From positions 1 through 38,909 of IMG/VR virus record IMGVR_UViG_2630968766_000008: a stretch of DNA of 38,909 bases. One strand, written 5' to 3'. The position numbers were made by a program, and so were the translations under genes. Below are positions 1,419-31,596 of this stretch, in pieces. A model generated the notes under the pieces. The model made no database searches and had not been told where the DNA came from. It worked only from the letters and a program-made list of their open reading frames with translations. How positions within the stretch are numbered: the first letter of the stretch is position 1; each line of letters begins with the position of its first letter. The DNA comes from a virus (taxonomy: Duplodnaviria; Heunggongvirae; Uroviricota; Caudoviricetes).

Positions 1419-3860
1419 TTAAAAATCAGCCTGACTCGGGATCAGTTTTTGCCAGATAACTGAAACGTATTTTGCCTGGTAACGAGCGTCATCAAGTGCA
1501 TTATGGCGCTCACCTTCGAATGGGATAGCAGTTCTGGCATCGAAGTCTATGGCTTTCCCCAGCTCAACGATTGTGCGTACATCGCGATCGTTGCAGTAGC
1601 GCCACGGGCAGGGGATACCCTGTCGTTCGTATGAACGGCGTAAAATCACGTTGTCGAAGTTGGCCCCATTACCCCAGACCTGAACAAAAAATTCACCGGA
1701 GTTTTCGTCGATAAATTCCCGCAATTGCAGTAGTGCATCATCTAACGGGATTTCATCGGTCATAATGGCAGACTGCGCTTCACGTGATTGCTTTAGCCAC
1801 CATTTAATGACGTCACGATCAATGACTCCGCCAGCAGTATCCAGATCGATGGTCTTGCTAAATTCCGGTCCCATATCTCCGGTTTGTGGATCGAAAAATA
1901 TTGCGCCTATTGAGATAATCGGGGCATCTGGATTTTTTCCCATGGTTTCAAGGTCGATCATCAGATGAATCCCCGCTCTGCTGGTGGATGTGAGCTTATG
2001 ATGACCATTCACCTTAATTAAGGGATCTGTCGCCTCGCCAGTTTTATTATCGCTGGCGTGATGCTGATTGCCGCCAGGGTTCTCCTTGTGTGGATGTTCA
2101 GCGCCTTCCATTTCCTCCGGATCATTTTCCTGAACTTCAACCTGATTCTCTTCATCGAATGTTTCCTGGTATGTTGCGTCGCCCATCACCGCGCCACAAT
2201 CAGGGCAGTTGCCGCCACCGCTCTGACCGCAGGCGGTGCAGACTTTTTCCGGTTCCTGTTGCGCTACTGGTTCGGATTGTTTCGTTTCTGGCTCGTTTTG
2301 TAACGCATTTGGGCTGTTTTGTTCCGCTTTTTGGTCGTTCCGTTCCGATTCATGCTGGTTCTGGTTCACAGAATCGCGAGTCTGGATCCCCTTGACCCAT
2401 TTCGGATCATTAGGGTCGCTAATCCCCTCAACAAATTCACCACGCGATACAGCAAGTAACTTATCGGCGTCAGGCTGGCTGATATTGGCTGCCTGCATAA
2501 TTTTGTTTACTTCGTCAGCGGTGACTTTTACTTGGTTAGCGGAACTCACCTGCGACTGAGCATCCAGCGACTGCGCGTTCTGGCAATGTTCAGTTGTATC
2601 CGGTTCCATTGTTTCAGTTGTTGCCTGTTCACCTGCCATTGCGTCAGATGGTTGTGGTTTTTCTTCTTCTGTTTCACGCTCAGTAACCACCTCGCGGTTA
2701 ATTTCTTCCAGGATATCTTTTTCCGGCGTATGCCGGGCAGCTGTGAGAGTTTCCTTGCTGGGGTTCTCGTGATCAGTTTCTGTCAAATAGGCGTTGATAT
2801 ACCCCTGAAGGCGTCCCGGGTAGTGATAAAATTCAGGGTGTGCACTTCGGATAAGTGCAAAAATAGCGGCGCGGGAATAGTCCAGAATACCCGGGGTTGC
2901 ACGAAGTGCTGCGGACCATTCTTTGAACGGACTTTCTTTTTTCAGGACTACTTCTTTTGCGCGACGATAAACGCTGCCCGGAATTTCATAAATATTAAAA
3001 TCCATCGGAAGTGTGGCTGCTGCAATCTCCACATCCAGTGTGTCGAGGGTGTGTACTAAATTCGGATTGCGATCGGTTTTGTTCCCACCGCCAGCATTAG
3101 CACCGGAAGCCGTGCGGGTGATGCGTGAAACACGATTTCCTTTCATCCACTCTTTTGTCAGCAGACCCCGATCAGTGTAGTCAGCGTCCAGGTATGCTTC
3201 GAAAAAAGCAGTTATTAGTCCCAGGTCTGAATTACCAGGATTAGGGAAAACTTTGTCAGTGTCACGAACCAGTTTGTGGAGGTCGCGAATCTCCAGCGAG
3301 TCGAGCAGACTGGTTTTATGCGAAATAGCAAGGGCAGTAACAGCCGGTAGTTCTTCAGCCCGTGCAATGTGTAATGCCTGGAGTTCGTCGCGTGAAACGT
3401 GCGTTACTGGTTTTTCGCTGCCGTGTTGAGCAAGCCAACGAATGGGCAGTTCCTGACCGGAGACAGGCAGAAGCATGCTCTCCTCAATCTCAGTCATGTC
3501 TTCGCCGTTGATGTTGGTATTGTCAGTGCTGGCTGGTTTGTCCTGAACAGAGGGGGAAGGGCCGATAAATGTCATTGTGATGCCATCTTTCCCGCCTTTT
3601 TCATAGCGGTTGCAGAATTCAGTATCAAACACGCCTTCTGGCGGAAGGTCGTCAACAACGGGCAAATTGACGCGGACGGGTTTTTTAAAGTCGTCTTCAT
3701 CATAATCGTTGTCATCCATTGCGGTAATGCAGCGGGAGATTGCAACAGATAATTTTTTTGCTGTAGTCCAGTAAAAACCACCTTTAATTCCCAGGCGTTT
3801 TCTTACTTTGTCATTTTTTGCTTCGCAATATAGTGCAAATTCTTCTTTATCAGTGCTCAT
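1419..3860 (-). CDS. Large early-left protein with C-terminal DnaQ-like (DEDDh) 3'-5' exonuclease domain; sits where the ydfE remnant lies in Qin
   Basis: 813-aa ORF. C-terminal ~180 aa carry exonuclease motifs (MIDLETMG, ...WGNGANFD..., H..ALDDARYQAKY). A central CTACG..CPDCG cysteine pair suggests a zinc knuckle. Follows ydfD in the dic operon. Confidence 0.65.
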   Translation of the reverse strand: MSTDKEEFALYCEAKNDKVRKRLGIKGGFYWTTAKKLSVAISRCITAMDDNDYDEDDFKKPVRVNLPVVDDLPPEGVFDTEFCNRYEKGGKDGITMTFIGPSPSVQDKPASTDNTNINGEDMTEIEESMLLPVSGQELPIRWLAQHGSEKPVTHVSRDELQALHIARAEELPAVTALAISHKTSLLDSLEIRDLHKLVRDTDKVFPNPGNSDLGLITAFFEAYLDADYTDRGLLTKEWMKGNRVSRITRTASGANAGGGNKTDRNPNLVHTLDTLDVEIAAATLPMDFNIYEIPGSVYRRAKEVVLKKESPFKEWSAALRATPGILDYSRAAIFALIRSAHPEFYHYPGRLQGYINAYLTETDHENPSKETLTAARHTPEKDILEEINREVVTERETEEEKPQPSDAMAGEQATTETMEPDTTEHCQNAQSLDAQSQVSSANQVKVTADEVNKIMQAANISQPDADKLLAVSRGEFVEGISDPNDPKWVKGIQTRDSVNQNQHESERNDQKAEQNSPNALQNEPETKQSEPVAQQEPEKVCTACGQSGGGNCPDCGAVMGDATYQETFDEENQVEVQENDPEEMEGAEHPHKENPGGNQHHASDNKTGEATDPLIKVNGHHKLTSTSRAGIHLMIDLETMGKNPDAPIISIGAIFFDPQTGDMGPEFSKTIDLDTAGGVIDRDVIKWWLKQSREAQSAIMTDEIPLDDALLQLREFIDENSGEFFVQVWGNGANFDNVILRRSYERQGIPCPWRYCNDRDVRTIVELGKAIDFDARTAIPFEGERHNALDDARYQAKYVSVIWQKLIPSQADF

Positions 3861-26475: not shown

Positions 26476-26500
26476 CACCCGCCGCTGGCGGGTTTTTTTA
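26476..26500 (+). terminator. Hairpin terminator/attenuator
   Basis: CCCGCCGCTGGCGGGTTTTTTTATTTT. Confidence 0.5.
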
Positions 26501-26516: not shown

Positions 26517-27221
26517 ATGTCCTCTAATTTTGAACGTTCTCAGCAGACCAAAGTCATGATCTCGTCTGCGCCGGTAACGGCAGAAACGCTGAGTTCTGCC
26601 AGTTTTCTTGAACTGAGCTGTACGATTAAAGAGGTGCAGTTTACCGCAGGACAAAAGCAGGATATTGATGTCACCACGCTGTGTTCTGTTGAGCAGGAAA
26701 ATATTAACGGCCTTGGTGCCGCGTCAGAGATTTCCATGTCAGGCAACTTTTACCTCAATGCTGCCCAGAACGCGTTGCGCAGTGCCTATGACAATGACAC
26801 CACGTATGGCTTTAAAGTTATTTTTCCGTCAGGCAACGGATTTACCTTTATGGCAGAGGTGCGTCAGCATACCTGGTCTGCAGGAACCAATGGTGTTGTG
26901 GCTGCAACGTTTTCCCTGCGTCTGAAAGGTAAACCTGTGCTGACGACAGAGCCGCTAAAAGTGAAGGTCGATTTAAACAGCACGCTGCAGGTTTCTGCCG
27001 GAGCGAAACTTGAAATGGCGGTTGAGGCTGCCGGTGGTGTGCCGCCTTATTCTTATGTCTGGAAGAAAGGTGGTTCTCCTGTTTCCGGACAGACGGCGGC
27101 AACGTTCAGTAAGGCATCCGCAGTATCCGGTGATGCGGGTGCATATACCTGCGAGATTTCTGATTCAGCAAGCCCGGTTAACAAGGTGACCTCCACTTCC
27201 TGCACTGTTACCGTCAGTTAA
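26517..27221 (+). CDS. V: Major tail protein V with C-terminal Ig-like domain
   Basis: 234-aa; C-terminal ~80 aa resemble a bacterial Ig-like decoration domain as in lambda gpV; followed by G/GT. Confidence 0.85.
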   Translation: MSSNFERSQQTKVMISSAPVTAETLSSASFLELSCTIKEVQFTAGQKQDIDVTTLCSVEQENINGLGAASEISMSGNFYLNAAQNALRSAYDNDTTYGFKVIFPSGNGFTFMAEVRQHTWSAGTNGVVAATFSLRLKGKPVLTTEPLKVKVDLNSTLQVSAGAKLEMAVEAAGGVPPYSYVWKKGGSPVSGQTAATFSKASAVSGDAGAYTCEISDSASPVNKVTSTSCTVTVS

Positions 27222-27607
27222 TGAGGATAGATGTGATGACTAAAAATATCCGTAATCTGGCACTGGCAACGATGTCGGGGTTTCGCCATAAAACTGTTGA
27301 TGTGCCTGAATGGGAAGGGGCAACGGTTGTATTACGGGAACCTTCTGCAGAAGCCTGGTTGCGCTGGCAGGAGATCGTTAAAGCAAAAGATGATGAGACA
27401 CCGTTATCCGTTGCGGAGCGCGCCCGCCGAAATCTGGAGGCAGATGTTGAACTGTTCATTGATGTTCTGTGTGATACCGGACTGCAACCTGTATTTTCAG
27501 AGGATGATCGTGAACAGGTGATTGCCGTGTATGGCCCGGTGCATGCGCGGCTTCTTCGGCAGTCTCTGGAACTGATCAGTGATGCCGGTGAGGTTAAAAA
27601 AAAGTAG
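27221..27607 (+). CDS. G: Tail assembly chaperone G
   Basis: 128-aa ORF ending ...GEVKKK* at an A-rich slippery run. Confidence 0.8.
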   Translation: MRIDVMTKNIRNLALATMSGFRHKTVDVPEWEGATVVLREPSAEAWLRWQEIVKAKDDETPLSVAERARRNLEADVELFIDVLCDTGLQPVFSEDDREQVIAVYGPVHARLLRQSLELISDAGEVKKK

Positions 27608-27909
27608 CGCTTCCGGGGATGCGTTTTCTGATGATGCTGGCGCTCAGGATGGGGCGCACATTGTCAGAGTTACGCCGGGAAATGTCTGCATCAGAAATCA
27701 TGATGTGGGCAGAATTTGACAGGTTCAGCCCGCTGGGTGACGAGCGGGCTGATATCCGGGCTGCCCAGATAGTTTCAGCTGTTTACGGTGCGCAGGGGGT
27801 CAAAGTGCCACTGAATGATGCGCTTCTTCAGTGGGAGAAGGAGCAGACAGAAGGCACCTCAGATCCATTTGCTGAGATTGAGAAGGCATTATTTGTTGCA
27901 GCTCGATGA
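27221..27909 (+). CDS. GT: Tail assembly chaperone GT fusion, made by -1 programmed ribosomal frameshift at A AAA AAG (27598-27604)
   Basis: The -1 frame is open from the slippery heptamer to 27909 (VALPGMRFLMMLAL...); conserved G/GT architecture upstream of the tape measure gene. Confidence 0.7.
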
Positions 27910-27966
27910 TCTTTTCACTTGACTGGATTATTATTCCCATTTTATTGAGAAAGTAAGGAAACATTG

Positions 27967-28308
27967 ATGGAATTTTTACTTATTTCAATAGTTTTGGGAC
28001 TAATTCCAGCTATTATTGCGAAAAGCAAAGGTCGCTCATTTTTAGGATGGTGGGTATATGGTGCGATGATCTTTATTGTTGCTCTGGTTCATTCGCTAGT
28101 AATCCAAAGAGATGAGAAGGCACATGAACAACAAATGGTAAGCAATGGCATGAAGAAATGCCCTTACTGTGCGGAGTTGATCAAAGAAGAGGCTATTAAA
28201 TGTAAGCATTGCGGTAGTGATTTAATTTGCAATGCAGATAGTTCCGTTTCACAAAAAACGGATGATGAATATCTTCAGGAAGCAAGGCGTAAGGCCGGAC
28301 TTCTTTAA
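27967..28308 (+). CDS. Membrane-anchored zinc-ribbon protein (moron between GT and tape measure)
   Basis: ATG 27967 after AGGAAA; two hydrophobic helices then CPYC...CKHCG zinc ribbon; AT-rich; own putative promoter (TTGACT 27918) and terminator. Confidence 0.55.
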
Positions 28309-28318
28309 AGAATACAAA

Positions 28319-28340
28319 AACCGCTTCGGCGGTTTTTTTT
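28319..28340 (+). terminator. Rho-independent terminator after the moron
   Basis: AAAACCGCTTCGGCGGTTTTTTTT. Confidence 0.6.
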
Positions 28341-28350
28341 CGTCCGGAGA

Positions 28351-31300
28351 ATGAGTGTGGCGACATTACGTGAACTGATTATTAAAATCTCGGCAAATTC
28401 CCGGTCATTCCAGTCAGAGATCTCCCGGGCTTCGCGTATGGGGCAGGATTACTACCGTACCATGCAGAACGGAGGCCGGCAGTCCGCTGCTGCATCCCGT
28501 GAAATGCGGCGTGCACTGGCAGAAGTGACGGATCAGATAAATACAGCTAAATCTTCGGCACTGAATATGGCGGGGGCATTTGCCGGAGCTTTTGCTACCG
28601 GTCATCTTATTTCTCTCGCCGATGAGTGGAATTCAGTAAATGCCCGTCTGAAGCAGGCTTCACAGTCCAGTGATGATTTTCAGGTATCACAACGTGAATT
28701 AATGGCAATCAGCCAGAGAACGGGAACGGCGTTTTCTGATAACGCCAGCCTTTTTGCCCGCTCTGCAGCTTCCATGCGGGAGTATGGCTACAGTTCTGAG
28801 GAGGTACTGAAAGTCACCGAGGCGATCTCCACGGGCCTGAAATTATCCGGTGCCAGTACAGCAGAAGCCAGTTCGGTGATCACGCAGTTCAGTCAGGCAC
28901 TGGCGCAGGGAGTGCTGCGCGGTGAAGAATTTAACTCTGTGAATGAGAACGGCGATCGTGTTATTCGTGCGCTGGCTGCGGGAATGGGTGTTGCCCGTAA
29001 AGATCTGAAGGCCATGGCGGATAACGGAAAACTGACCGCCGATAAGGTTGTTCCTGCACTGATTAGTCAGCTTGGGGCGTTGCGTGATGAATATGCAGCA
29101 ATGCCTGATACTGTTTCATCCTCTGCAACCAAAGTTGAAAACGCCTTTATGGCCTGGGTTGGTGGTGCGAACGAGGCAAGCGGAGTGACAAAGACACTCA
29201 CCGGGGTGTTGAATGGTGTTGCAGACAATATTGATACCGTGGCTGCTGCAGCTGGCGCACTGGTTGCCGTCGGGGTAGCCCGATATTTTGGCAATATGGC
29301 GTCGTCTGCTGGATCTGCAACTGCCGGATTAATTACTGCAGCCAGAAACGAAGTGGCTCTTGCTGAAGCGCAACTTCGGGGGACACAGATAGCAACCGCC
29401 AGGGCGCGTGCGGCGGTTTATCGTGCGCAACAGGCGGTTGTTGCTGCTCGCGGTACCGAAAGGCAGGCCGCAGCAGAAGCGAAGCTGACAGCTGCCCAGG
29501 CGTCACTTACCCGTAATATTGTGGCCAGAACAGCAGCACAGACAACGCTGAATAATGTTACGTCAGTGGGGAGCCGTTTGTTAAGTGGTGCGCTGGGGCT
29601 GGTTGGGGGTGTGCCGGGGCTTGTCATGCTGGGGGCCGCGGCCTGGTACACGATGTATCAGAATCAGGAGCAGGCCAGAGAATCAGCACGCCAGTATGCC
29701 GCAACAATCGACGAAATTCGCCAGAAAACGTCGGCAATGTCGCTTCCTGAAACGTCAGATAATGAAGAAAAGACGCGGCAGGCACTTGATGAGCAAAACA
29801 GGTTAATTGACGAGCAGAAAAGTAAGATTAAATCCTTACAGGAAAAAATTGCTGGCTATCAGTATGTGCTGGCAAACCCGGGCTGGACAACCGATAACGG
29901 TTTTATGATTAACCATATGACGTCGGTGAAAACTGTCACAGAAGGGCTTGCAGAAGCAACAAATCAACTGGCAGTTGAACAGTCTCGCCTCACTCAAATG
30001 CAGGGCAAAGCGCAATCTATTCAGGATGTGCTTGCCGGGCTGGAGGAGCGACGGGTGGCGTTGATCCGTCAACAGGCGGCGGAACAAAACAAAGCGTATC
30101 AGTCCCTGTTGATCATGAATGGGCAGCATACCGAGTTTAATCGTCTTCTCGGGCTTGGTAATGAATTACTTCAGCAGCGACAGGGGCTGGTGAATGCACC
30201 ATTACGGCTACCACAGGCAACCCTGGATGATAAACAGCAGACCGCACTGAATAACAGCGAGCGCGAACTGGCTCTGTCCCGCCTGAAGGGGGAAGCCCGT
30301 GAGCGTGCCCGACTGGGTTATGCTGCGGATGATCTCGGCTTTGTGGGAGAGGCGTATCAGACAGCCAGACAGAATTATATCAATAACTCACTGGATGCCT
30401 GGCGAAATAACCAGGCAAATAAACCCAAAGCGCATAAAAAGACCGAAGCGGAAAAAACAGAAGATATTTATAAACGGCTGATTAAACAGCAAAAAGAACA
30501 AATAGCACTGGCAGGGCAGAATACTGAACTGGCTAAGATGAAATATCAGGTCAGTCAGGGCGAATTATCAACCCTGTCAGAAGCGCAGAAAAAAACGCTT
30601 TTACAGAATGCGGCACTCATCGACCAGAAAAAGATTCGTGAGCAGCTTGCCGCGTATGAAAGCAGTCTGGCGGACAGTAATGCCAGCGCCCGGGCATCTG
30701 ACGACGCGCAGTTGCTGGGATATGGTGAAGGCTCACGGATGCGTGAACGACTCCAGGAAATGTGGAGTATCCGGCAGGCGTTTGAGCAGAAAAATAACGA
30801 GCTGCTGAGACAGTATCAGGCCGGAGAAATTGAAGAAGCCCTGTGGAAACAGGAGAAAGAACTGAATAAAAAATATCTGGAAGAGCGTCTCAGCGATCAG
30901 CAGGATTATTATGCAAAGGCTGATGCTTTACGCAGTAACTGGAATGCCGGACTCCAGGAGGGGCTGACGAACTGGGCAGACAGTGCCACTGATTATGCTT
31001 CGCAGGCGGCAGATGCTGTCGTTTCCACTATGGACGGGCTGGTATCAAATATTTCCGATGCACTGGCCGGAAATGTTGTGGACTGGAGAAACTGGGGGAG
31101 TTCAATTCTCCAGGAAGTTTCAAAAATTCTGATGAACGCTGCCATCGTTAACGGGCTGAAGTCACTTTCCAAAAGCATGTCCGGTGCCGGAGGATGGCTT
31201 GGTACAGTCGGCGACTGGCTGTCCGGTGCAGTGGCAAACGCAAAAGGTGGTGTTTATACATCGGCAAATCTGAGTGCTTACAGTAACACTATTGTGGATA

Positions 31301-31596
31301 CACCGACGTATTTTGCTTTTGCGAAAGGTGCCGGGTTGATGGGCGAGGCCGGGCCTGAAGCAATCATGCCACTGACACGGGCAGCGGACGGCTCTCTTGG
31401 GGTCAGGGCCATTGGAAATGTGAATGGTGGCGGTGGATTTGTTTATTCTCCCGTGTATCACATCAGCATTCAGAATCAAGGGAGCAATGGCGAGATAGAT
31501 GCGCGCTCAGCCAGGGGACTGGTGGATCTGATCGACAGCAGGGTTGTGTCAATTATGCAGTCATCACGTCGGGACGGAGGATTATGCAGTGCCTGA
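28351..31596 (+). CDS. H: Tail tape measure protein (lambda H-like)
   Basis: 1081-aa, Ala/Gln-rich coiled-coil protein in the canonical position between GT and M. Confidence 0.9.
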   Translation: MSVATLRELIIKISANSRSFQSEISRASRMGQDYYRTMQNGGRQSAAASREMRRALAEVTDQINTAKSSALNMAGAFAGAFATGHLISLADEWNSVNARLKQASQSSDDFQVSQRELMAISQRTGTAFSDNASLFARSAASMREYGYSSEEVLKVTEAISTGLKLSGASTAEASSVITQFSQALAQGVLRGEEFNSVNENGDRVIRALAAGMGVARKDLKAMADNGKLTADKVVPALISQLGALRDEYAAMPDTVSSSATKVENAFMAWVGGANEASGVTKTLTGVLNGVADNIDTVAAAAGALVAVGVARYFGNMASSAGSATAGLITAARNEVALAEAQLRGTQIATARARAAVYRAQQAVVAARGTERQAAAEAKLTAAQASLTRNIVARTAAQTTLNNVTSVGSRLLSGALGLVGGVPGLVMLGAAAWYTMYQNQEQARESARQYAATIDEIRQKTSAMSLPETSDNEEKTRQALDEQNRLIDEQKSKIKSLQEKIAGYQYVLANPGWTTDNGFMINHMTSVKTVTEGLAEATNQLAVEQSRLTQMQGKAQSIQDVLAGLEERRVALIRQQAAEQNKAYQSLLIMNGQHTEFNRLLGLGNELLQQRQGLVNAPLRLPQATLDDKQQTALNNSERELALSRLKGEARERARLGYAADDLGFVGEAYQTARQNYINNSLDAWRNNQANKPKAHKKTEAEKTEDIYKRLIKQQKEQIALAGQNTELAKMKYQVSQGELSTLSEAQKKTLLQNAALIDQKKIREQLAAYESSLADSNASARASDDAQLLGYGEGSRMRERLQEMWSIRQAFEQKNNELLRQYQAGEIEEALWKQEKELNKKYLEERLSDQQDYYAKADALRSNWNAGLQEGLTNWADSATDYASQAADAVVSTMDGLVSNISDALAGNVVDWRNWGSSILQEVSKILMNAAIVNGLKSLSKSMSGAGGWLGTVGDWLSGAVANAKGGVYTSANLSAYSNTIVDTPTYFAFAKGAGLMGEAGPEAIMPLTRAADGSLGVRAIGNVNGGGGFVYSPVYHISIQNQGSNGEIDARSARGLVDLIDSRVVSIMQSSRRDGGLCSA

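What the first reader, a model, noticed from the sequence alone, without database searches (positions are those of the whole stretch)
27910..28345. Self-contained moron inserted between tail chaperone GT and the tape measure gene
Lambda has no gene between T and H. Here a 114-aa protein with two transmembrane helices and a C-terminal CPYC...CKHCG zinc ribbon sits in an AT-rich island with its own promoter-like element (TTGACT at 27918) and a strong intrinsic terminator (28319-28340). A membrane-anchored zinc-ribbon protein expressed from a prophage is a good candidate for superinfection exclusion or another lysogen-benefit function.
Basis: partly seen in the sequence, partly recalled or inferred. 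Interest (0 to 1): 0.6.

Follow-up and report, generated by a model that had tools for sequence, protein, structure and literature searches.

The report
Membrane zinc-ribbon moron before tape measure
A small accessory gene for a membrane-anchored zinc-ribbon protein sits in the same slot of a phage tail operon where phage HK97 carries its classic "moron", and it most likely protects the lysogen against incoming phages, though that is untested.

Summary
A 113-codon ORF (27967-28308) lies in a GC-poor 444-bp cassette (27875-28318) between tail chaperone T and the tape measure gene. It encodes two hydrophobic helices and a C4 zinc ribbon, and is under strong purifying selection (dN/dS 0.08).

The tail module is HK97-like, and HK97 carries its founding moron, gene 15, in this same slot. 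About 95% of 903 E. coli genomes with this junction lack the cassette. One carries a lipoprotein-like gene there instead.

Two details need correcting.
- The terminator hairpin is also present in empty sites and in HK97, so it belongs to the slot.
All 44 distinct upstream regions share xTGAxx-N17-TAxxxT; here that is ATGATC 27906-27911 and TATTAT 27929-27934.

The protein family is large and uncharacterised. Its core aligns (99.5% probability) with "Imm_superinfect + zinc ribbon" proteins. One of these occupies the same chaperone/tape-measure slot in a Pseudomonas phage.

The best reading is a lysogen-expressed inner-membrane superinfection-exclusion protein that acts on incoming tape measure proteins. 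This is inferred, not shown.

The parts
27221..27607 (+). Tail assembly chaperone G (context). An A8 run at 27596-27603 sits just before its stop codon and is the likely -1 slip site for the G-T fusion.
   Evidence: Pfam Phage_TAC_1 at 2.8e-58. Sequence read. The T frame is -1 relative to G.
27619..27909 (+). T part of the G-T chaperone (context). Its last 11 codons (27875-27909) are part of the variable segment.
   Evidence: Pfam Phage_tail_T at 1.6e-20. Identity to the empty-site phage ends at 27874.
27875..28318 (+). Variable cassette of 444 bp. It is replaced by 43 bp in empty-site relatives and is GC-poor.
27906..27911 (+). -35-like hexamer ATGATC, overlapping the T stop codon TGA at 27907-27909. 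Relatives have GTGAC(A/T) here.
   Evidence: xTGAxx-N17-TAxxxT occurs at -56 to -62 from the ATG in all 44 distinct upstream regions. The spacer is not conserved.
27929..27934 (+). -10-like hexamer TATTAT (5 of 6 matches). It is TAGGAT in most relatives and TATGAT in the 84% variant.
27919..27924 (+). It lies inside the spacer of the conserved element and is not conserved.
27955..27959 (+). Shine-Dalgarno AAGGA, 7 nt before the ATG.
   Evidence: Sequence.
27967..28308 (+). 113-codon ORF encoding a transmembrane hairpin, a C4 zinc ribbon and a C-terminal helix.
   Evidence: dN/dS is 0.08.
27970..28101 (+). Codons for the two hydrophobic helices (residues 2-21 and 25-45) and the invariant KGRSF..WW.YG..A..H motif.
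28150..28224 (+). Codons for the zinc ribbon, residues 62-86 ([24 protein letters not shown]). This is the most constrained part of the gene.
   Evidence: dN is 0.02 for residues 48-86. It aligns with the Imm_superinfect + zinc-ribbon family.
28316..28340 (+). Intrinsic-terminator-like hairpin and T run just before the tape measure start. It belongs to the slot, not to the cassette.
   Evidence: It is conserved in empty sites, in HK97 and downstream of a different cargo, with different stems in some lineages.
28351..31596 (+). Tape measure protein, HK97 type (context, and the proposed class of target in incoming phages).
   Evidence: Pfam Phage_HK97_TLTM at 2.2e-95, TMP_3 and Tape_meas_lam_C.

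Best explanation
This is a moron in the HK97 'gene 15' slot.

Shown at the sequence level:
- A GC-poor cassette lies between T and the tape measure gene.
- It carries a conserved sigma-70-like promoter footprint, with the -35 over the T stop codon and the -10 at 27929-27934.
- It has a Shine-Dalgarno sequence and a 113-codon ORF.
- The terminator hairpin that always precedes the tape measure gene in this tail lineage closes the unit.
- The product has a two-helix hydrophobic hairpin and a C4 zinc ribbon, so it is predicted to sit in the inner membrane.

Inferred:
- The gene is transcribed from the repressed prophage.
- The protein excludes superinfecting phages at the DNA-entry step. It would interfere in the inner membrane with the conduit that the incoming phage's tape measure protein forms.
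- T4 Imm was recently reported to act this way, and HK97 gp15 is proposed to.
- The zinc ribbon is most likely cytoplasmic, and the variable C-terminal tails may set partner specificity.
For: Slot and polymorphism:
- HK97 gp15 'moron product' plus a putative terminator lie between gp13/14 and the tape measure gene.
- gp15 is an inner-membrane exclusion protein whose effect depends on the tail of the incoming phage (PMC3594210).
- Empty alleles dominate, at about 859 of 903 E. coli genomes.
- The same slot holds a lipoprotein-like cargo in strain MEI7BO1-21.
- It holds a lipoprotein-like ORF plus a homologue of this gene in Pseudomonas phage D14C.

Real gene under selection:
- dN/dS is 0.08, against 0.10 for G and 0.39 for T.
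- There are 1623 homologues and 407 clusters at E<=1e-30.
- All 80 best IMG/VR loci show the order major tail protein, G, T, this gene, tape measure.
- Its divergence tracks that of the flanking genes.

Promoter footprint: 44 of 44 distinct upstream regions carry it.

Link to superinfection-immunity proteins:
- The profile-profile match to the PF14373 + zinc-ribbon family has probability 99.55% and E=2e-23 over 90 columns.
- A member of that family, Pseudomonas phage YMC11/02/R656 gp65, sits between the tail chaperones and the tape measure gene.
- Other members lie next to a CI-like repressor, an integrase or a prophage edge.
- T4 Imm (PF14373) binds the tape measure protein and blocks genome translocation (bioRxiv 10.64898/2026.03.06.709160).

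Mobility: relatives of this gene also occupy other moron slots, namely L|K, K|I and after the tailspike.
Against: - There is no experimental datum on this family. PHROG 8436 has 'unknown function', and PADLOC and NCBIfam give nothing.
- The homology to the PF14373 fusion family is carried by the zinc ribbon. Hairpin-only profiles give 39.8% probability and align only helix 1. Pfam PF14373 does not hit this protein. T4 Imm itself gives 1-4%.
- There is no homology to gp15.
- Close relatives at 50-56% identity occur in Acidobacteria, Nitrospira, Bacillota and others in mixed chromosomal contexts. A more distant subfamily is paired with SPFH/Band 7 genes. This argues for a general membrane role.
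- Topology is ambiguous: the basic KSKGRS loop and the zinc ribbon would lie on opposite sides of the membrane.
- The -35 in this window matches only 3 of 6 positions.
- The gene is co-oriented with the late operon, so expression only late in infection cannot be excluded.
Confidence: 0.45

Rival explanations
1. The gene is expressed in the lysogen, but it is not an entry blocker. It could be a membrane-acting abortive-infection or defence effector. It could instead modulate host membrane physiology, for example through SPFH/FtsH-type membrane quality control.
For: - The core is conserved at 50-56% identity across distant phyla, which suggests a universal membrane partner or an autonomous activity.
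- A related subfamily lies immediately downstream of SPFH/Band 7 genes in 6 of 7 loci tested from Nitrospirota, Thermodesulfovibrionia, Desulfobacterales and Ignavibacteriales.
- FtsH is nearby in 2 loci.
- A cytoplasmic zinc ribbon has no role in the known exclusion proteins.
Against: - No match to any PADLOC defence model.
- No partner gene is conserved in the enterobacterial loci.
- In enterics and Pseudomonas the gene is tied to tail operons, next to or near the tape measure gene. An entry-level function explains that placement more simply.
- The SPFH-linked proteins lack the WW.YG and H42 signature.
Confidence: 0.3
2. It functions in the lytic cycle. It would be made with the tail proteins from the late transcript, for example to shield the producing cell's membrane from its own tape measure protein or to stop progeny injecting into cells already infected.
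For: - The gene is always co-oriented with the tail operon and directly upstream of the tape measure gene in 87 loci.
- It has been linked to the tail module across genera for a long time.
- It has its own Shine-Dalgarno sequence and so would be translated from the late mRNA.
- The terminator would be read through by Q-modified polymerase (established lambdoid biology).
Against: - The gene is dispensable. Isolated phages such as PhiR49_2, Evi and phi467 have G 100%, T 91% and tape measure 98% identical and lack it. About 95% of E. coli copies of this tail module lack it.
- A decayed pseudogene exists in strain KY180.
- A conserved promoter footprint would be unnecessary for a gene expressed only late.
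- Homologues also sit outside tail operons.
Confidence: 0.15
3. It is a chance ORF or a decaying remnant with no function.
For: One lineage (KY180) has lost the first Cys-Pro of the ribbon and is not annotated as a gene.
Against: - dN/dS is 0.08, and dN is lower than in G and T in all three comparisons.
- 18 columns are invariant across 85 sequences.
- There are thousands of homologues.
Confidence: 0.02

Closest known systems
HK97 gene 15 moron (gp15 superinfection exclusion protein)
   Same: - Same slot: after the G/G-T chaperone genes and before an HK97-type tape measure gene.
- Followed by a terminator hairpin directly upstream of the tape measure start.
- Encodes a small hydrophobic protein, is GC-poor, and is present or absent among relatives.
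   Different: - No sequence relationship (BLASTP E=0.3; hhalign probability 0.2%).
- gp15 is 62 aa with one hydrophobic segment and no zinc ribbon.
'Imm_superinfect (PF14373) + Zn_ribbon_3' proteins, e.g. Pseudomonas phage YMC11/02/R656 gp65 ('immunity to superinfection')
   Same: - Same order of parts: an N-terminal membrane hairpin with an (L/I)PAIIA motif, then a CPYCAE.IK..AIKC..CG ribbon.
- Whole-core profile match at probability 99.55%.
- gp65 sits between the tail chaperones and the tape measure gene.
- Other members lie in prophage accessory positions.
   Different: - The hairpin here is about 10 residues shorter and does not match PF14373.
- The hairpin-only comparison is inconclusive at 39.8%.
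- None of these fusion proteins has been tested. Their name comes only from the Pfam domain.
T4 Imm (superinfection immunity protein)
   Same: - A small inner-membrane protein of a phage.
- Local motif resemblance: LPWFIALMRGSK against [12 protein letters not shown].
- It is reported to bind the tape measure protein and block genome translocation, which is the mechanism proposed here.
   Different: - Homology is not supported (probability 4.4% and 1.1%).
- It has no zinc ribbon.
- It is an early gene of a lytic phage, not a prophage moron.
Other tail-operon morons of lambdoid prophages (lambda lom/bor type, Cor-type lipoproteins)
   Same: - Accessory genes inserted between tail genes.
- This prophage also carries an Ail/Lom gene after J.
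- The same slot in another E. coli strain holds a lipoprotein-like cargo.
   Different: The proteins are unrelated and reside in the outer membrane or are lipoproteins.

Membership tests
Moron (as described by Cumby, Davidson and Maxwell 2012, PMC3594210, citing Juhala et al.) | Extra DNA between genes that are adjacent in related phages | tested here: met
   11 phages and about 859 E. coli genomes with 95-99% identical flanks lack about 400 bp here.
Moron (as described by Cumby, Davidson and Maxwell 2012, PMC3594210, citing Juhala et al.) | GC content different from surrounding genes | tested here: met
   GC is 0.36-0.41 against about 0.51-0.57 in the flanks.
Moron (as described by Cumby, Davidson and Maxwell 2012, PMC3594210, citing Juhala et al.) | Own promoter | tested here: inconclusive
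   A conserved xTGAxx-N17-TAxxxT footprint is present in 44 of 44 distinct upstream regions. In this window the -35 matches only 3 of 6 positions, the consensus scan does not call it, and no transcript data exist.
Moron (as described by Cumby, Davidson and Maxwell 2012, PMC3594210, citing Juhala et al.) | Own terminator | tested here: inconclusive
   A strong hairpin and T run follow the ORF. The same hairpin is present in empty sites and HK97, so it belongs to the slot.
Moron (as described by Cumby, Davidson and Maxwell 2012, PMC3594210, citing Juhala et al.) | Expressed from the repressed prophage | not testable with these tools
   Needs RNA or reporter data from a lysogen.
HK97 gp15 family | Sequence homology to gp15 | tested here: not met
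   BLASTP E=0.3. hhalign probability 0.2%.
Pfam PF14373 Imm_superinfect | Match to the family HMM above the gathering score | tested here: not met
   No hit at E<=1 for the whole protein, nor at E<=10 for ten N-terminal fragments of family members.
Pfam PF14373 Imm_superinfect | Profile-level homology of the membrane hairpin | tested here: inconclusive
   Hairpin-only profiles give probability 39.8% and E=3e-4, with helix 1 only aligned. Against T4 Imm profiles the probability is 1-4%. The whole core against the PF14373 + ribbon family gives 99.55%, driven by the ribbon.
Pfam PF13248 Zn_ribbon_3 | HMM match above the gathering score and four Cys ligands | tested here: met
   34.7 bits against a cut-off of 27. 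C65, C68, C79 and C82 are invariant in 85 sequences.
PHROG 8436 (unknown function) | Full-length HMM match | tested here: met
   E=2e-50, residues 1-111 against profile positions 1-108 of 110.
Known anti-phage defence systems (PADLOC-DB 2.0) | Match to any defence protein model | tested here: not met
   Only two weak partial hits to unrelated models (HEase E=0.0012, LmuB E=0.0067), both lying over the linker and zinc-ribbon region.
Superinfection exclusion proteins (functional class) | Blocks infection after adsorption, at DNA entry, when expressed alone | not testable with these tools
   Requires plating, adsorption and DNA-entry assays.

The most novel reading that the evidence does not exclude
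Proteins with a transmembrane hairpin and this CPYCAE-type zinc ribbon, together with their PF14373 + ribbon sisters, could form one very large, cross-phylum class of tape-measure-directed 'immunity' proteins.

Siphophages would keep them genetically linked to the tape measure gene, much as pore-forming colicins keep an immunity gene. The cytoplasmic zinc ribbon would add a step absent from Imm and gp15. It might capture the incoming tape measure C-terminus or the DNA end, or recruit a host factor such as FtsH or SPFH.
Probability: 0.2. Interest if true: 0.65.

Novelty: new variant of a known kind. Interest (0 to 1): 0.4.

Why it matters
If the protein does exclude phages, it would define a very common and so far unstudied family of entry blockers. 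I found 1623 homologues in the word-based search, 407 clusters at E<=1e-30, and members in many phyla.

It would also show that the slot between the tail chaperones and the tape measure gene is a conserved exchange point in Escherichia, Salmonella, Cronobacter, Enterobacter and Pseudomonas siphophages. Small envelope proteins are swapped in and out there.

This fits the recent report that T4 Imm acts on the tape measure protein. It also offers a simple system for asking how specificity between exclusion protein and tape measure is encoded: near-identical E. coli prophages with and without the gene.

If the protein has no phage phenotype, it is one more ordinary moron of unknown function.

Tried and rejected
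- Homology to HK97 gp15: none.
- Homology to T4 Imm, which I suspected from the motif LP..IA..RG: not supported with a single sequence or with a 12-sequence profile.
- Pfam domain for the membrane hairpin: none, even at E<=10 on ten fragments.
- PADLOC and NCBIfam: nothing meaningful.
- Fold searches of the AlphaFold model against PDB and BFVD: only generic RanBP2/NZF-type zinc ribbons and two unnamed viral 'zinc-ribbon' proteins.
- The terminator as part of the insert: rejected.
- Known RNA families in 27000-29000: none above threshold, only weak matches driven by the terminator.
- Literature on the RefSeq accessions WP_000394908 and WP_021543566: none. Literature on zinc-ribbon morons: none. 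The primary gp15 paper (PMC3430355) is not held.
- Membrane topology from charge bias: ambiguous. The loop carries a net charge of about +2.3. The C-terminal flank has 2.9 K+R and 3.8 D+E.
- A partner gene that would explain function: none in enterics. An SPFH neighbour appears only in a distant subfamily.

Full report
**What is in the window**

- The ORF runs from 27967 (ATG; an in-frame TTG lies at 27964) to 28308 on the + strand. An identical copy in E. coli SC516 is annotated as a 113-aa 'zinc ribbon domain-containing protein'.
- Upstream are the tail chaperone G (27221-27607, Phage_TAC_1) and the T reading frame (27619-27909, Phage_tail_T).
- Downstream is a 1081-aa tape measure protein of HK97 type (Phage_HK97_TLTM, 2.2e-95).
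- GC falls to 0.36-0.41 over 27800-28400, against about 0.51-0.57 on either side.
- The product has two hydrophobic segments.
- In an AlphaFold model (mean pLDDT 76) these are helices 2-21 and 25-45. A short helix 50-59 follows, then a zinc ribbon at 62-86, a disordered linker, and a C-terminal helix 99-109.
- The ribbon passes the Pfam Zn_ribbon_3 threshold.
- A hairpin with a T run at 28316-28340 folds at -12.2 kcal/mol, z = -3.6.

**Is it an insertion?**

- Eleven E. coli phages match the flanks at 97-99% but are about 400 bp shorter.
- Of 903 complete E. coli genomes that carry this junction, only 44 span the cassette. A search with the cassette alone finds it in 45 genomes, always between T and the tape measure gene.
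- Alignment with phage PhiR49_2 places the left breakpoint at 27874/27875, inside the last 11 codons of T. The right breakpoint is at 28318/28319.
- A 444-bp segment therefore replaces 43 bp.

**The slot is a known one**

- In HK97 the gene annotated 'Gp15, moron product', followed by a putative terminator, lies at this same position.
- Gene 15 is the element for which the word moron was first used. gp15 is an inner-membrane superinfection exclusion protein whose effect depends on the tail of the incoming phage (PMC3594210).
- The slot takes other cargo too. E. coli MEI7BO1-21 has a 113-aa ORF there that looks like a lipoprotein, beginning MRKSVVTLACLFFISAC.
- Pseudomonas phage D14C has a lipoprotein-like ORF plus a homologue of the present gene between T and its tape measure gene.

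**The terminator belongs to the slot**

- Bases 28319-28350 are 100% identical in the empty-site phages.
- A hairpin and T run directly upstream of the tape measure start is present in several settings:
  - the window itself
  - the 84% E. coli variant
  - Salmonella phage FSL SP-016
  - Cronobacter prophages, with a different stem (CCCCGC/GCGGGG)
  - HK97, with stem CCCGCT/AGCGGG
  - downstream of the lipoprotein-like cargo
- Whether empty sites are deletion scars or the ancestral state cannot be decided here.

**The promoter**

The scan does not call it, and it reads TTTACT in near-identical relatives.
- I compared the 85 nt upstream of the start codon in 87 loci with the arrangement T, this gene, tape measure.
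- All 44 distinct sequences carry xTGAxx-N17-TAxxxT at -56 to -62 from the ATG. The consensus is GTGAC(A/T)-N17-TAGGAT.
- The spacer is poorly conserved, at 0.1-0.8 bits in its middle.
- Six of the twelve hexamer positions were fixed by my search pattern. The informative results are that every sequence matches at the same place and that the unconstrained positions are also conserved.
- In the window the element is ATGATC (27906-27911, over the T stop codon) and TATTAT (27929-27934).
- In Cronobacter the -35 lies in the intergenic region, so coding constraint does not explain its conservation.
- This is a phylogenetic footprint of a sigma-70 promoter. It is not proof of transcription.

**The gene is real and old**

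- Between the window and the 84% E. coli variant, dN/dS is 0.08, against 0.10 for G and 0.39 for T. dN is 0.02 over residues 48-86.
- Across Salmonella, Cronobacter, Enterobacter and other prophages the protein is 61-70% identical, where G is 48-71% and T is 48-65% identical.
- All 80 best IMG/VR loci have the order major tail protein, G, T, this gene, tape measure.
- The gene has therefore travelled with this tail module for a long time and is also lost easily. One lineage (KY180) carries a decayed copy that lacks the first Cys-Pro.

**The wider family**

- A word-based search finds 1623 homologues.
- A profile search of 1.84 billion representatives finds 407 clusters at E<=1e-30 and 4312 at E<=1e-10.
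- The conserved core is residues 1-86, with invariant G11, P14, A18, K21, G22, F25, W28, W29, Y31, G32, A39, H42 and the four cysteines. C-terminal tails vary.
- In other enterics the core sits in other accessory positions:
  - between L and K in Edwardsiella
  - between K and I in Atlantibacter
  - after the tailspike at a prophage end in Enterobacter
  - in a small island in Pantoea
- Relatives at 50-56% identity occur in Bryobacteraceae, Nitrospira, Bacillota, Planctomycetes and others, in mixed contexts. Integrases are the commonest neighbour.
- A more distant subfamily lies directly downstream of an SPFH/Band 7 gene in 6 of 7 loci tested. It lacks the WW.YG/H42 signature.

**Relation to known exclusion proteins**

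- There is no relation to gp15.
- I suspected T4 Imm from a shared local motif, but profile comparison gives only 1-4% probability. PF14373 does not hit the protein or fragments of its relatives.
- A tblastn search of phage genomes did lead to Pseudomonas phage YMC11/02/R656.
- Between its tail chaperones (Phage_TAC_4, DUF1799) and its tape measure gene lies a 195-aa protein annotated 'immunity to superinfection'.
- This protein is PF14373 (1.6e-18) followed by the ribbon RPCPYCAEMIKCAAIKCRYCG.
- The same architecture has 611 homologues.
- Profile against profile, that family and the present one align over 90 columns with probability 99.55%, E=2e-23.
- With the ribbon removed, only helix 1 aligns, at 39.8%.
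- The ribbon is therefore homologous. The hairpin may be a shortened relative or a replacement.
- Three other members of the sister family lie next to a CI-like repressor, directly after an integrase, or at a prophage edge.

**Mechanism**

- A 2026 preprint reports that T4 Imm binds the T4 tape measure protein and blocks genome translocation. It notes that a similar action has been proposed for gp15 (10.64898/2026.03.06.709160).
- Given the slot, the predicted membrane location and the relation to PF14373-ribbon proteins, exclusion at the entry step is the reading I favour.
- In that reading the protein targets the tape-measure-dependent conduit of incoming phages. I put this at about 0.45.
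- None of it is shown for this family.
- Topology is unresolved. The basic KSKGRS loop argues for a cytoplasmic loop, while a four-cysteine ribbon argues for a cytoplasmic C-terminus. With two membrane spans both cannot be true.

**Rivals**

- A different lysogen function, such as a defence effector or a membrane-physiology role, is suggested by the cross-phylum conservation and the SPFH link. I give it 0.3.
- A late, lytic-cycle role is possible because the gene is always co-oriented with the operon. Its dispensability and the promoter footprint weaken this reading. I give it 0.15.
- A non-functional ORF is excluded by the selection data.

**Verdict**

- This is a genuine moron in the classic HK97 moron slot, carrying an uncharacterised but very widespread membrane zinc-ribbon protein.
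- It is a new variant of a known kind. It is moderately interesting as a testable candidate for a large new family of exclusion proteins.
- It is not surprising as a genome feature.

Noticed in passing
window 28316-28340; L001 about 3325-3350; L005 1399-1423; L184 about 1320-1345: A terminator-like hairpin directly upstream of the tape measure start is kept in this tail lineage whatever lies upstream: empty site, gp15, the zinc-ribbon gene or a lipoprotein-like gene. Stems differ between lineages. It may tune the ratio of chaperone to tape measure expression, or it may be the scar of repeated cargo exchange.
   Followed up: partly
L184 969-1310 (E. coli MEI7BO1-21): The same slot holds an unrelated 113-aa ORF with a lipoprotein-type signal (MRKSVVTLACLFFISAC...). 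It could be an exclusion candidate acting at the outer membrane or in the periplasm.
   Followed up: partly
L185 about 960-1340 (E. coli JNEC-KY180; also strain 2014C-3075): A copy of the cassette at 88% identity has a 6-bp deletion removing the first Cys-Pro of the ribbon, plus further changes, and is not annotated as a gene. It looks like a decaying pseudogene.
   Followed up: partly
L050, L061, L062, L063, L068, L073 (Nitrospirota, Thermodesulfovibrionia, Desulfobacterales, Ignavibacteriales): A distant subfamily of the hairpin-plus-ribbon protein is encoded immediately downstream of an SPFH/Band 7 gene on the same strand. This pairing resembles the known SPFH-NfeD gene pairs. FtsH is nearby in two loci.
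   Followed up: partly
L188 3512-4276 (Pseudomonas phage vB_PaeS-D14C): Between T and the tape measure gene are two unannotated ORFs: one lipoprotein-like (...LTAVLSGC...) and a 103-aa homologue of the zinc-ribbon protein. The record instead annotates a 58-aa ORF on the opposite strand.
   Followed up: partly
window 27596-27603: An A8 run just before the G stop codon, with T in the -1 frame. This is the expected programmed frameshift site that produces the G-T fusion.
   Followed up: no
window 26517-27221: The major tail protein carries a C-terminal immunoglobulin-like domain (Ig_2/Ig_3, residues about 154-233). A terminator-like hairpin lies just upstream of the gene at 26477-26493.
   Followed up: no
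L007 6001-9289 (Cronobacter): In one Cronobacter prophage the tape measure gene downstream of the zinc-ribbon gene is disrupted. The product called there hits Phage_HK97_TLTM together with the IMS, IMS_C and DUF4113 families. The zinc-ribbon gene itself is intact in this degraded prophage.
   Followed up: no
L027 2881-8993 (Yersinia massiliensis): About 5 kb lies between tail gene K and the zinc-ribbon homologue, and a further 0.7 kb before gene I. This suggests a larger multi-gene accessory island in the K|I slot.
   Followed up: no
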